NCBI GenBank assembly: GCA_951406725.2
Contig: OX597818.1
Location: 51,336,001 to 51,400,000, forward strand
Direction: 5' to 3'
Length of the DNA: 64,000 bases
Source: Octopus vulgaris
Taxonomy: Eukaryota
Positions 34,852 to 63,700 of this stretch are shown in pieces. A program made the position numbers. Numbering within the stretch: position 1 is the first letter of the stretch; each line of letters starts with the position of its first letter.

Positions 34852-35828
34852 TATGTGTATATACATATATATTTATATACATAATATATGTATATGTGTG
34901 TGTATATATATATATATATATATGTGCATATATATATATATATATATATGTATATGTGCATATATATATATGTATATGTGTGCATATATAAATATATATA
35001 CATACATATATATATATATTATTTTTCTTTTCCATATTTTAATCTAAATTTGAATATCTCGGAATTTTCAAAGATTTTCTTAGGGAATTTTTCACGAAGG
35101 TAACCTTAAAGTTCTTTTCTTTTCTTTTCTATCTGTATGGTTGTGCATGCATATGTGTTTATGCGTTTGCATTAAGGGGGTAGGGAAGGGGAAGGGGGGG
35201 GGAGAATGAGAGATAGAGAGAAAGAGATAAATTTCCATGTGTTCTAGCCCTGAGATCCTTTGCTCTCCAAACTTTTATAATTATTATTAATTATAATTAT
35301 AATTATTATTAAAAAAAAAAAAAAAAAAAAAAAAGAAATGTAGTGCAAATAGTCATGTGATTAGATGTTGGCAGGACCAACAATCTAGTGAAAATCTGAT
35401 CTACAAGCTGAAATGAGTTCTACTTCATTGAGATTATTTTTTTTTTTTGTTTTAAAGTATTATTTTTTTTTACTTATTTATTTTTACTTTTTACCCCTCC
35501 TCCCCAAAAACTGAAAGGTTTACATGGTGAAAATGTTGTCCACTGGTTCCCATGAGTTGTAACGATTGCTGTAACCTTTCCATTTGACCAAAACCTCTTG
35601 ATGACCTTTCTGCACACGTTTCTTTAAGACTTTCTCTACAATAAAAACCTCACCTGGAAAGAGATGAAACACAGAAAAGAACACAGGTGTTATTAATTAA
35701 TTAACAGGTTACTCACAGCAGTGTCACGGTAGCTGTGGTTAGAATAGCAGAGGATTGGTAGAGAGAAAATGGTTAAACAGAGAAACGAACTAGTTGGAAT
35801 AAAGAGAGGGAGTATAAGAGAGAGAGAG

Positions 35829-35862
<34 letters not shown>

Positions 35863-60700: not shown

Positions 60701-63700
60701 CTAACGTTTCTACCAGCTCACTGCCTTTGGAAATATATAACCAACAGCGCTACTGTCCACTAAATGTAATATAAAACATTAAATAAAGAGCCTGCTCTTC
60801 AACATTTATTGTCTGTATCAGGGCACCTGATTGTCTTGTACACATTGGCTGATGTTGTCAGTACTTTGGGTGCAGGAGTGGCTGTGTGGTAAGTAGCTTG
60901 CTTCCCAACCACATGGTTCTGAGCACCTTGGGCAAGCGTCTTCTACTATAAGCCTCGGGCCGACCAAAGCCTTGTAAGTGGATTTGGTAGATGGAAACTG
61001 AAAGAAGCCTGTCATATATATGTATATGTATGTGTGTGTTTGTGTGTCTGTGTTTGTTCTCCCCCAACATCGCTTGACAACCGATGCTGTTGTGTTTATG
61101 TCCCCGTAACTTAGCGGTTCGGCAAAAAGCGACCGATAGAATAAGTACAAGGCTTACAAAGAATAAGTCCTGGGGTTGATTTCCTCAACTAAAGGCTGGT
61201 GCTCCAGCATAACCGCAGTCAAATGACTGAAACAAGTAAAAGAGTACACTATTTTCACTTAGTTTCTCCTGTGAGTTAACACTGACATCAGTCACAGACA
61301 AACTGCAGCTCACAGAACTTCTGAATGGTACACCTAATGAAAAATTACCTTGAATTTTGTTTAGTGGCATGGTCTGCTTAACGTTGAGCCACCTCTCACG
61401 TGGTCCCTTGAAAAGGGTTGCTTCATGTCAGATTTATACAATGAATCATATACAAATTACTTCCCTCAAGACACTGCAGAATTTCTAAATTTGGTGCCCA
61501 AGTCTTGCTACCTTTTCTTACTGAAGATACTATAATAATAACTGTGGCAGGGGTGGTGGTCATGGTTGTAATAGTAGTAGTTGTTGTCATTGTCATTTAC
61601 TGTCTATTTTTCATACTCAAGAGGAGCCGACATACTAGAGTATAGTGTCAAGTTCCAATACCTGCTTTGGTATAGTTTCTACAGCTGGATGCCCTTCCAA
61701 ACACCAAATATTATTTTGGTAAATACTTCTTTAAGCAGTATAACTTACTTCTTTAGGTGAAACTGGATTTTTTCAGAAGCATTTAAAATTTTCCGAAGAT
61801 CCGATATTCCATAGGACTGTGGTCTTTTTAGGATAATGCCATCCGGGAAGCCCTCAATGTCGATAAACATAGGATCTTTTTCCAGTTTAACATATGGCAT
61901 GGTCCGAGTACTGCCGCAACATAAAGCTGGTAGCGAAAAGGATAAGAAAATAAGTGAGCAGAATAGATAGATATATAGACAAAGAGAAGAGTGAAAGTGG
62001 AAGATTAACAGTTTTAGAAGTTGAATATTGCCAGGATTATTGGGTGTGTAAATACAGTTGAGGGAAACTAGCAATTAATATGAAGGTGAGTCAATTTCAG
62101 TAAATATGAAAACCAAGATCAGAAATTTCAAATGGAGCTATTTTCCCTTCCAAAATATTTTTAATGTTTTCTCTTTTAAAACTGGATTCCACCCACCAAA
62201 TCTAATAGGTATTTTGACTCGACTTGACTTGAGACAGCATGCACCCGGGGTGGGTTGAGCTGGCTTCATTCATCCTCAATGCTGCATCTCTCACAAACGC
62301 CGACCCAGACCTGGCGATTTGAGGCTAACGACCACGTGATCTCCAACCACTCCTTATTCCAGTGGCGAACGCCGTAGATATGGGGGCCTGGGTTGGGTTC
62401 CAGATCAGCCTCGACTGTCATCAGCCAGGTTTTTCGTTGTCCATCACATCACTTTCGCCAACCCTGAAGGGGAGCCGGGGCAATTGCTTCGTAGATGAAT
62501 TCTCCTGGTTGACGACGGAGGGCATGACCCAGCCAACGCAGACATCTCATTAGGATGACTTGTTGGGGGGAGGTGATTCTGCACTATTAAAGGCTCGCCA
62601 AGCCTTCAATAGGTATTTTAGTGATTACTAGTAATGCAGCCTTGTAGGATAATACAATATAAGCATACTTTACTACCAAATGACTCAATATGCCTAAATA
62701 AAAACTGAAATAGGTTCATACTCTCTTCAACACTGATGTAATCTAAAGAAAGGATATGGTATCCGTGTTGAGATGCAGGAGTCGTCAGAGAAACACTGGG
62801 AATTCACTAGACTGCTTTAACCCTTTTGTGACCATATTTCTGTTAAGATGCTCTGTGTTTCTTTCAATTAATTTTAAATATAACAAAGAATTTAGTAAAA
62901 TAACTTAGTTATCATTAAGCTAGTGTTAGGAACATAAATTGTGACTAAGGTTTGGTAGAAGATTTTAATTCAAAACTTATGAAAACAGGACATTTGTACT
63001 ACAGAGCCAGGGGCGGTTTCAGGCAGGTTGGTATCAAAAGGGTTAAGGACTCCAGTACCAAGTTAACAATTCTGATCTCTTCTGGTAATCAGAGTCACAG
63101 TTCATAACTAAAGAAGGAGCCTCAACATCAGTTGCAACATCACATAATGTTTCCTCCTCATCACCTATCCAAATGATAAGATGTAATTTGAGTGTGTGTG
63201 TGGCTCTTTTATAAATCTGAAATAAAGTGTTATGAAAATGGACTCACAAAACTTCTCATTGAATAAGGCCTTCACTTCTTCTGCAAGCTTCTTACGATTG
63301 TTTTTGGGCTGATCTTTGCCCTTGGCTGAAACGAATAAAAGAAGAGAAAATATTTTTAGTCTATACAAATCACAGTTCATAGCGTGAGTGATTTAATTAA
63401 TTAACTAAAGCTGTATGAAACAAACTATTTTATTAATAATTCAAAGGAAACAAGTAATATAAATAAATGCAGTTAATTGTTTTTCTTTTTTAAGGAAATT
63501 TCTGTAGTGAGGAAAAATAAAGCCATCAATGTTTTGGATATAGTTTCTCTTCTCTGAGAGACAAAACAGTGAAGAGGAAAGATTTACACAAAATAATGGC
63601 AATAATGGTAGAATGGTGGAGGCAGCGGCCCAAGGAATTGAAATGGTGAGCTAACTATGAGAAGTAGAGTTATAAGTCTATATAGAATATATAACAGTGG

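What the first reader, a model, noticed from the sequence alone, without database searches (positions are those of the whole stretch)
35520..63325. Gene joining a TFII-I (GTF2I) I-repeat to a C-terminal chromodomain
Seen: five minus-strand exons join at GT-AG sites with compatible phases (1-1, 1-2, 2-1, 1-1, 1-stop) into one frame of about 450 aa: I-repeat, a ~320-aa disordered K/S/P linker, then a chromodomain ending at the stop. The last exon lies beyond a 20-kb intron and is invisible in the ORF track. Known: I-repeats are the DNA- and protein-binding modules of GTF2I, GTF2IRD1 and GTF2IRD2, none of which has a chromodomain; chromodomains read methyl-lysine. Inference: a sequence-directed factor coupled to a histone-mark reader, an architecture I do not recognise from any characterised protein.
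Basis: partly seen in the sequence, partly recalled or inferred. Interest (0 to 1): 0.9.

Follow-up and report, generated by a model that had tools for sequence, protein, structure and literature searches.

The report
I-repeat gene ending in a chromodomain exon
The window holds the 3' part of an animal gene that encodes a TFII-I-type repeat and a long floppy linker and probably ends, after a 20-kb intron, in a shortened Polycomb-like chromodomain; the pairing is unusual, but no transcript yet proves it.

Summary
Five minus-strand exons have AG/GT borders and matching phases: 63325-63248, 61926-61749, 59568-59435, 56803-55967 and 35653-35520. They give about 452 codons.

Searched exon by exon, exon 2 is a GTF2I repeat (Pfam 54.5 bits) and exon 5 a Chromo domain (52.7 bits). 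The chromodomain is closest to Polycomb-class CBX4 and CBX8. It covers only profile positions 1-40 of 53, so the C-terminal helix is missing and the stop follows at once.

The join across the 20.3-kb intron is not shown. It is favoured by these points:
- Exon 5 has a very strong acceptor and no start codon.
- Exon 4 ends in GTAAGT in the same phase.
- No poly-A signal follows exon 4 for 1.4 kb, while one lies 38 nt after the exon 5 stop.
- Nothing else in between looks coding.

I put the single-transcript model at about 0.55. The joined protein was never built or searched. My rating is a plausible new domain combination of modest interest.

The parts
63248..63325 (-). Exon A (phase 1 to 1): basic stretch and the presumed first 15 positions of the I-repeat. 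The upstream exons lie outside the window.
   Evidence: Acceptor with 10 of 12 pyrimidines plus CAG, donor GTGAGT. Alone it is too short to score: no Pfam hit at E<=1 and no PDB hit at E<=10. The register argument comes: the exon C frame matches GTF2I profile positions 16-75 starting at the split codon, so the last 15 residues of A would fill positions 1-15 without a gap.
61749..61926 (-). Exon C (phase 1 to 2): the main body of one GTF2I-type I-repeat.
   Evidence: Pfam GTF2I 54.5 bits, E 1.5e-14, and 55 bits for profile 16-75 on the whole open frame. All 10 of 10 PDB matches at E<=0.01 are GTF2I, GTF2IRD1 or GTF2IRD2 repeats, the best being GTF2IRD1 2dzq at 38.6 bits. Donor GTAAGT.
59435..59568 (-). 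Exon X (phase 2 to 1): 44 codons rich in P, N, T and K. First part of the linker.
   Evidence: Composition is 91% disorder-promoting residues. No Pfam family.
55967..56803 (-). Exon D (phase 1 to 1): 278 codons. A basic S/K/P/E-rich linker with one predicted helix and short tandem peptide units.
   Evidence: It lies in the longest open frame in the window, 290 codons. Net charge is +17 and 76% of residues are disorder-promoting. The AlphaFold2 single-sequence model has mean pLDDT 53.7, with only residues 126-152 helical. There is a 24-nt tandem repeat of 3.4 copies at 56137-56218 and a 30-nt repeat of 2.2 copies at 56001-56065. The donor is A|GTAAGT, and the frame would close 5 codons later if it were not spliced.
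35654..55966 (-). Proposed 20,313-nt intron between D and E, filled with repeats.
   Evidence: 41% of it is repeated elsewhere in the window. No other ORF or strong acceptor opens on recognisable coding sequence. Two SINE-like families lie 12:1 in one orientation here.
35520..35653 (-). Exon E (phase 1 to stop): 43 codons encoding the beta-sheet core of a Polycomb/CBX-like chromodomain, then TAA at 35522-35520.
   Evidence: Pfam Chromo 52.7 bits, profile 1-40 of 53. 53 PDB sequences match at E<=0.001, the best being CBX4 and CBX8 at 49.2 bits, with query 2-41 aligned without gaps. The acceptor has 11 of 12 pyrimidines plus CAG|G. There is no ATG in the open frame upstream of the domain.
35477..35482 (-). 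AATAAA poly-A signal 38 nt after the exon E stop, followed by an A-rich stretch.

Best explanation
The window holds the 3' part of one protein-coding gene on the minus strand; its 5' end is beyond base 64000.

Exons A and C encode one TFII-I-type I-repeat. Exons X and D encode a linker of about 325 residues that is basic and largely unstructured, with one helix and short KFKPxES-like tandem units. The transcript most likely splices from the GTAAGT donor at 55967 across a 20.3-kb repeat-filled intron to the acceptor at 35653. It then ends in a 43-codon last exon that encodes the three-stranded core of a Polycomb/CBX-like chromodomain and is followed by a poly-A signal.

Inferred mechanism: a nuclear chromatin factor in which an I-repeat module (DNA or protein binding, as in TFII-I and GTF2IRD1) is tethered by a flexible basic linker to a methyl-lysine-binding cage. 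This would bring the factor to, or hold it on, H3K27me3- or H3K9me3-marked chromatin.

Shown: the exons, splice signals, phases and the identity of both domains. Inferred: the D-E junction, the nuclear role and methyl-lysine binding. Because the C-terminal helix is not encoded, binding may be weak or lost. All exon borders but one lie in phase 1, so the chromodomain exon may have been gained by exon shuffling, much as GTF2IRD2 gained its C-terminal transposase domain.
For: - Exon chain and phases. Splice-site quality.
- Pfam hits on C and E, about 27 bits above their cut-offs.
- PDB relatives: 10 of 10 for C are I-repeats, and for E the top matches are CBX4/8/2/6/7 and Pc. In the printed CBX4 alignment I count 23 of 40 positions identical.
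- The query residues opposite what I recall as the three aromatic-cage positions of CBX4/8 (F, W, W) are F, W, Y. The positions are recalled, not tested.
- E needs an upstream exon. Homology starts one codon after an acceptor with 11 of 12 pyrimidines plus CAG, and the frame has no ATG.
- D's donor is one of only 20 GTAAGT on this strand and is in the same phase.
- After D's read-through stop the first AATAAA or ATTAAA is 1,406 nt away, against a background of 1.6 per kb. E's stop has AATAAA 38 nt downstream.
- Of 161 low-repeat minus-strand ORFs of 35 aa or more between 12600 and 55966, none but E looked coding by eye. The 5 of them sent to Pfam gave nothing above cut-off.
- Of 40 strong acceptors in the same span, only 35653 opens on recognisable coding sequence.
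- Each exon is single-copy in the window.
- Weak hint: two SINE-like families lie 12:1 in one orientation inside the D-E interval, against 8:6 between E and the next gene.
- Precedent for domain capture by an I-repeat gene: GTF2IRD2 (passage read in bioRxiv 10.1101/2020.05.07.082677).
Against: - No transcript, orthologue or conserved-synteny evidence could be obtained.
- Phase agreement at D-E has a 1 in 3 chance.
- The D-E intron is about 8-15 times longer than the other three (about 1.3, 2.2 and 2.6 kb).
- The chromodomain stops at profile position 40 of 53. That is what a decaying or accidentally exonised fragment would look like.
- D's frame closes only 5 codons past the donor, so D could also be a last exon.
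- Exon A alone gives no family hit, so the first 15 positions of the I-repeat rest on register and a recalled motif.
- The orientation bias is not significant against the flank (Fisher p = 0.09 after dropping the two self-hits), and it is absent in the gene body (3:4).
- Short exons under 35 codons inside the intron cannot be excluded.
Confidence: 0.55

Rival explanations
1. Two transcription units. The I-repeat gene ends at or after exon D, either by read-through to the TAG at 55953 or through another unseen last exon. Exon E belongs to a separate small transcript whose short first exon lies hidden in 35654-55966, for example a duplicated 5' fragment of a Polycomb/CBX-type gene.
For: D's frame closes 5 codons past the donor. 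The D-E intron is far longer than the others. In CBX and HP1 proteins the chromodomain is N-terminal (PDB chains; gene structure recalled). A first exon of a few codons would escape every screen used here.
Against: There is no poly-A hexamer for 1.4 kb after D. D carries a consensus GTAAGT donor in the right phase. No coding-like ORF, start exon or further chromobox-type sequence was found. A transcript of a short first exon plus E would encode only about 50 residues of a truncated domain.
Confidence: 0.2
2. Exon E is internal, not terminal. The GT that overlaps the stop (AT|GTAAAC, exon end at 35524) serves as a donor, and a further exon downstream supplies the missing chromodomain helix and perhaps more.
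For: A GTAAAC donor overlaps the TAA. The domain breaks off exactly where the helix should start.
Against: AATAAA lies 38 nt after the stop. Among the strong acceptors between 12600 and 35519 listed, none opens on a helix-like or otherwise coding-looking frame in the required phase. No chromoshadow- or Pc-box-like sequence turned up on this strand, though the Pc-box motifs were recalled and the search was crude. The next gene (DDX6) converges from the other strand and ends at 12557.
Confidence: 0.08
3. The truncation is an artefact or a recent lesion. One base is missing in the T4 run at 35533-35530, either as an assembly error or a real frameshift. With it restored, the frame would run 12 codons further through a short amphipathic stretch to a TAA at 35493-35491, giving a full-length chromodomain. 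This rival concerns only the end of exon E and is compatible with the main model.
For: The +2 frame stays open from the T run for 14 codons. By my recollection of CBX helices, it places a leucine and a phenylalanine in the expected register. Homopolymer runs are common sites of indel error.
Against: The +2-frame ORF gave no chromodomain match in PDB at E<=10 (1 hit, SUMO2) or in Pfam at E<=10 (only a sub-threshold Crust_neuro_H). Twelve residues carry too little signal either way. The read-through could not be tested, because no changed sequence was made.
Confidence: 0.12
4. Exon E is a non-functional relic, either an exonised or dead fragment of a chromodomain gene or of a chromodomain-bearing retroelement. 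It is spliced rarely or never, and the real protein has no working chromodomain.
For: The helix is missing. The exon is single-copy and isolated within 40 kb of repeats.
Against: The 43 codons are intact and score 52.7 bits with no gaps against CBX4/8. Homology starts exactly at a top-grade acceptor; only 62 such sites (at least 10 of 12 pyrimidines plus YAG) exist on this strand. No integrase-like or other retroelement ORF was seen by eye in the frames next to it, and the two nearby ORFs sent to Pfam (37349-37684, 36145-36384) gave nothing. The nearest relatives are cellular CBX proteins.
Confidence: 0.05

Closest known systems
TFII-I family (GTF2I, GTF2IRD1, GTF2IRD2) I-repeats
   Same: Exon C matches Pfam GTF2I at 54.5 bits. 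Its only PDB relatives are I-repeats of these three proteins, the best being GTF2IRD1. Joining A directly to C would give a repeat of canonical length (register).
   Different: Only one repeat is in the window. The known members carry two to six repeats (recalled). No characterised member has a chromodomain (recalled; no paper found). The linker exons match no family.
Polycomb-class chromobox proteins (CBX2/4/6/7/8, Drosophila Pc)
   Same: These are the best PDB matches for exon E (49.2 bits, E 2e-12, gapless over 40 positions, 23 of 40 identical to CBX4 by my count). Aromatic residues sit at the recalled cage positions.
   Different: The domain is at the C-terminus rather than the N-terminus and lacks the C-terminal helix (profile 1-40 of 53). 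It is encoded in one exon. No Pc-box-like sequence was seen.
HP1 proteins (CBX1/3/5, Drosophila HP1, Rhino)
   Same: The chromodomain core is similar (CBX5 45.3 bits).
   Different: No chromoshadow domain or hinge was seen on this strand. The scores are lower than for the Polycomb class.
GTF2IRD2 as a precedent for domain capture
   Same: An I-repeat gene that gained a foreign C-terminal domain by splicing to a captured exon (passage in bioRxiv 10.1101/2020.05.07.082677). Here the candidate added exon is in phase 1, like nearly all other borders of the gene.
   Different: The captured module there is a transposase. Here it is a chromodomain with no sign of a mobile element around it.

Membership tests
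TFII-I / GTF2I family | At least one GTF2I-like repeat scoring above Pfam's gathering cut-off | tested here: met
   54.5 bits against 27 for exon C, and 55 bits on the full open frame. All 10 PDB matches are I-repeats.
TFII-I / GTF2I family | Several I-repeats in one protein (two to six; recalled) | tested here: inconclusive
   tblastn of exons A and C finds only themselves in the 64 kb. The 5' part of the gene lies outside the window.
TFII-I / GTF2I family | N-terminal dimerisation region / leucine zipper (recalled) | not testable with these tools
   The 5' exons are beyond base 64000 (one search shows no exon in 63326-64000).
Chromodomain (Pfam Chromo) | Match to PF00385 above the gathering cut-off | tested here: met
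   52.7 bits against 25.1. 53 PDB chromodomain sequences match at E<=0.001.
Chromodomain (Pfam Chromo) | Aromatic cage for methyl-lysine | tested here: met
   In the printed alignment to CBX4/8, the query has F, W, Y opposite F, W, W. Which columns form the cage is recalled, not computed.
Chromodomain (Pfam Chromo) | C-terminal alpha-helix packing on the sheet (profile positions 41-53) | tested here: not met
   The match ends at profile position 40 of 53, and TAA follows two codons later. No match for the alternative frames.
Polycomb-class CBX proteins | N-terminal chromodomain plus C-terminal Pc box | tested here: not met
   The domain is C-terminal in the model. No Pc-box-like motif on the minus strand (recalled short motifs). 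Nothing coding-like downstream.
HP1 proteins | Chromoshadow domain downstream of the chromodomain | tested here: not met
   No coding-like ORF between 12600 and 35519 on this strand. This rests on inspection by eye of ORFs of 35 aa or more; none of these downstream ORFs was sent to Pfam.
Chromoviral (Ty3/gypsy) integrase chromodomain | Chromodomain at the end of a pol frame with an integrase upstream | tested here: not met
   The frame is closed just upstream of the acceptor. No integrase-like frame was seen by eye among the neighbouring ORFs, and the 2 sent to Pfam had no hit. The best relatives are cellular CBX proteins.

The most novel reading that the evidence does not exclude
A working chromatin factor, outside the characterised vertebrate TFII-I family, that unites I-repeat targeting with a Polycomb-type methyl-lysine cage in one polypeptide. 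It would read a repressive histone mark and a DNA or protein partner at once. It would also show that I-repeat genes gained reader or enzyme modules by phase-1 exon capture more than once: a transposase in GTF2IRD2 and a chromodomain here.
Probability: 0.3. Interest if true: 0.6.

Novelty: new variant of a known kind. Interest (0 to 1): 0.42.

Why it matters
If the five-exon mRNA exists, it is a natural fusion of a TFII-I-type module with a histone-mark reader. That would give a direct handle on how I-repeat factors engage chromatin. It would be a second case of an I-repeat gene gaining a C-terminal module by exon capture. It would also be a test case for whether a chromodomain can work without its C-terminal helix.

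If the junction is not used, the locus is an ordinary I-repeat gene fragment next to an orphan chromodomain exon.

Either way the claim of novelty is provisional.

Tried and rejected
- **Frame translations with stops.** I replaced it with stop-free ORF lists. Five of those 161 ORFs, plus five other frames, went to Pfam. Nothing scored above cut-off; the sub-threshold hits were Crust_neuro_H at 19.6 bits and DUF2492 at 15 bits.
- **Alternative exon 'B'.** A candidate at 63164-63059 (phase 1 to 2), paired with acceptor 61910, would be frame-compatible. It has weaker sites (8 of 12 pyrimidines, donor GTACTG) and no family hit. It would also put about 35 residues inside the I-repeat, whereas the direct A-C join fits the profile without a gap. 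I rejected it as the main form.
- **Frameshift idea.** A missing base in the T4 run at 35533-35530 got no support from PDB or Pfam.
- **AlphaFold2 on exon E.** The single-sequence model gave one long helix (pLDDT 77.6, pTM 0.42). That contradicts the known beta fold of its family and is a single-sequence artefact. It was not used, and no fold search was run.
- **Exon A alone.** No PDB hit at E<=10.
- **Atlas look-alikes.** Exon C returned GTF2I-only clusters (best 0.91, but recognition 2079 is below the 2300 mark). Exon E returned Chromo clusters only (best 0.89). No mixed set appeared. This is weak, because only large clusters are searched.
- **Rfam and tRNA scans.** No matches.
- **Literature.** GTF2I + chromodomain + repeat gave 34 papers. 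The 15 listed are gene lists or unrelated, judged from the listing and abstract starts only. Searches found 0 papers. One search found 1 irrelevant paper. None of the 20 papers listed contains GTF2I. One search found 1 paper, with passages read.
- **Pc-box search.** Short recalled motifs found nothing.
- **Not done.** The bacterial/archaeal genome-contig scan was not used, being irrelevant to an animal gene. The joined five-exon protein was deliberately not built, translated, searched or folded.
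Full report
**What is in the sequence**

- A, 63325-63248
- C, 61926-61749
- X, 59568-59435
- D, 56803-55967
- E, 35653-35520, including the TAA

Leading and trailing bases are 2/1, 2/2, 1/1, 2/1 and 2/0. The four split codons, read by eye, are TCT, AAT, GAC and AGT, and none is a stop. The model has 448 whole codons plus 4 split ones and is open at its 5' end.

All five acceptors are CAG behind 9-11 pyrimidines out of 12. The donors are GTGAGT, GTAAGT, GTGAGA and GTAAGT. 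On this strand of the 64 kb, GTAAGT occurs 20 times and acceptors of the top grade (at least 10 of 12 pyrimidines plus YAG) occur 62 times. Exon D sits in the longest open frame of the whole window, 290 codons.

The joined protein was not built, searched or folded.

**The two domains**

Pfam on the five exon translations gave a family for 2 of 5:
- Exon C is a GTF2I-like repeat: 54.5 bits against a cut-off of 27, E 1.5e-14, profile 24-74 of 75.
- Exon E is a Chromo domain: 52.7 bits against a cut-off of 25.1, E 3.9e-14, profile 1-40 of 53.

Against the PDB, all 10 matches of exon C at E<=0.01 are I-repeats of GTF2I, GTF2IRD1 or GTF2IRD2. The best is GTF2IRD1.

Exon E matches 53 chromodomain sequences at E<=0.001, led by the Polycomb class: CBX4 and CBX8 at 49.2 bits, then CBX2, CBX6, CBX7 and Pc. 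HP1-type proteins come slightly lower, and CDY, MPP8 and CHD1 well below. The alignment to CBX4 is gapless over 40 positions, and I count 23 identities. The residues opposite what I recall as the aromatic cage are F, W and Y.

Exon A is too short to score alone. However, the open frame around exon C matches profile positions 16-75 starting exactly at the split codon. A direct A-to-C join would therefore place the last 15 residues of A on positions 1-15 without a gap. That is an inference from register, not a test.

Each exon is single-copy in the window.

**The linker**

Exons X and D match no family. They are 91% and 76% disorder-promoting residues, and exon D has a net charge of +17.

A single-sequence AlphaFold2 model of exon D has mean pLDDT 53.7 and only one helix, residues 126-152. 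This is compatible with a mostly unstructured linker, although single-sequence models are weak evidence.

Exon D contains a 24-nt tandem repeat (3.4 copies, 56137-56218) that encodes short KFKPxES-like units. It also has a 30-nt repeat of 2.2 copies at 56001-56065.

**Is the chromodomain exon part of this gene?**

This cannot be shown here. The indirect signals favour it:
- Exon E cannot stand alone. Homology begins one codon after a first-rate acceptor, the frame upstream is closed, and it has no ATG.
- Exon D ends in A|GTAAGT in the matching phase.
- After D's read-through stop, the first AATAAA or ATTAAA on this strand is 1,406 nt away, although such hexamers occur 1.6 times per kb.
- AATAAA lies 38 nt after E's stop, followed by an A-rich stretch.
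- Between 12600 and 55966 I listed 161 minus-strand ORFs of 35 aa or more with under 30% repeat content. None but E looked coding by eye, and the five sent to Pfam gave nothing above cut-off.
- Of 40 strong acceptors in that span, only 35653 opens on recognisable coding sequence.
- 41% of the intron is repeated elsewhere in the window.
- Two SINE-like families lie 12:1 in one orientation inside the interval, against 8:6 in the stretch between E and the next gene.

The orientation bias is only a hint. After dropping the two self-hits, Fisher's p is 0.09, and the gene body itself shows no bias (3:4).

Against the junction:
- Phase agreement has a one-in-three chance.
- The intron is about 8-15 times longer than the other three.
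- D could end five codons later.
- Exons shorter than 35 codons would have escaped me.
- There is no transcript or orthologue.

I put the single-transcript model at about 0.55.

**The truncated domain**

The Chromo match ends at profile position 40 of 53, and the stop follows two codons later. The C-terminal helix that packs on the sheet in solved chromodomains is therefore not encoded in frame. I considered three ways out:
1. A GTAAAC donor overlaps the stop and could lead to a further exon. I found no candidate exon downstream, and the poly-A signal argues for a terminal exon.
2. A missing base in the T4 run at 35533-35530 would open a 12-codon extension in the +2 frame. Searches with that frame gave no chromodomain match, and twelve residues are too few to decide.
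3. The domain really is truncated. In that case, methyl-lysine binding is doubtful.

An AlphaFold2 run on exon E alone gave a long helix. That is an artefact of single-sequence prediction, and I discarded it.

**Comparison with what is known**

The I-repeat passes its family test, but only one repeat is visible and the N-terminal features lie outside the window.

The chromodomain passes the Pfam and cage tests and fails the helix test. It is not a CBX or HP1 protein: its position is C-terminal, and neither a Pc box nor a chromoshadow domain was seen. It is also not the tail of a retroelement pol frame.

A precedent for an I-repeat gene capturing a C-terminal module is GTF2IRD2 (passage read). 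Here all borders except the C/X pair are in phase 1, which suits exon shuffling.

**Novelty and its limits**

No paper describing an I-repeat and chromodomain fusion was found:
- 34 papers, 15 seen as listing and abstract starts, all gene lists or unrelated.
- 0 papers.
- 1 unrelated paper.
- none of the 20 listed papers contains GTF2I.
- 1 paper, with passages read.

The Atlas returned only single-family clusters for either exon.

The tools that could have settled the matter were closed: homologous-protein searches, the representative-protein search, and the metagenome and viral contig collections. The one open genome collection holds only bacteria and archaea and was not used. Supplementary files were not consulted.

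**Verdict**

My rating is a plausible new domain combination of two known modules ('new variant of a known kind') of modest interest. It hinges on one unverified splice junction and on a chromodomain that lacks its last helix.

Noticed in passing
window 48-12557, + strand: A DDX6/me31B/cgh-1-type DEAD-box helicase gene in several exons, converging on the I-repeat gene. Pfam finds DEAD and Helicase_C on 3 of 5 exon frames tried. For the 6686-7069 frame, the best PDB matches are DDX6, me31b and cgh-1 at about 116 bits. The last exon ends near 12557.
   Followed up: partly
window 56137-56218 and 56001-56065, - strand (inside exon D): Coding tandem repeats of 24 nt (3.4 copies, 67% matches) and 30 nt (2.2 copies). 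They give about six short KFKPxES-like peptide units and two K/S/E-rich decamers. These could be short linear motifs.
   Followed up: partly
window 35530-35533 and 35491-35532, - strand: Just before the stop of the chromodomain exon there is a T4 run. From it the +2 frame stays open for 14 codons to a TAA at 35493-35491. A one-base indel (assembly error or real lesion) is possible. Searches gave no support.
   Followed up: partly
window 63059-63164, - strand: A frame-compatible candidate alternative exon lies between exons A and C. It would need acceptor 61910 instead of 61926. It has weaker splice sites and no family hit.
   Followed up: partly
window 35654-55966 against 12558-35519: Two SINE-like repeat families lie 7:1 and 5:0 in one orientation inside the proposed intron, but 3:3 and 5:3 in the stretch downstream of exon E. 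The test is not significant after removing self-hits.
   Followed up: partly
window about 31487-32354, both strands: A G+C-rich block (GC 0.536 in 30001-32000). Its overlapping ORFs repeat the same peptide units several times. It looks like a tandem array derived from the commonest SINE-like repeat of the window.
   Followed up: no
window 40181-40645 (+), 22023-22514 (+), 50854-51222 (+), 62266-62448 (-): ORFs that look to me, from recollection, like C-terminal tails of non-LTR retrotransposon ORF2. The first two are copies of each other. None hits a Pfam family at E<=0.01.
   Followed up: partly
whole window: There are no tRNA genes and no Rfam family at gathering score, so the abundant SINE-like repeats are not recognisably tRNA-derived by these tools. 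Many TA and CA microsatellites are present, for example at 34565-35047 and 43675-43980.
   Followed up: no
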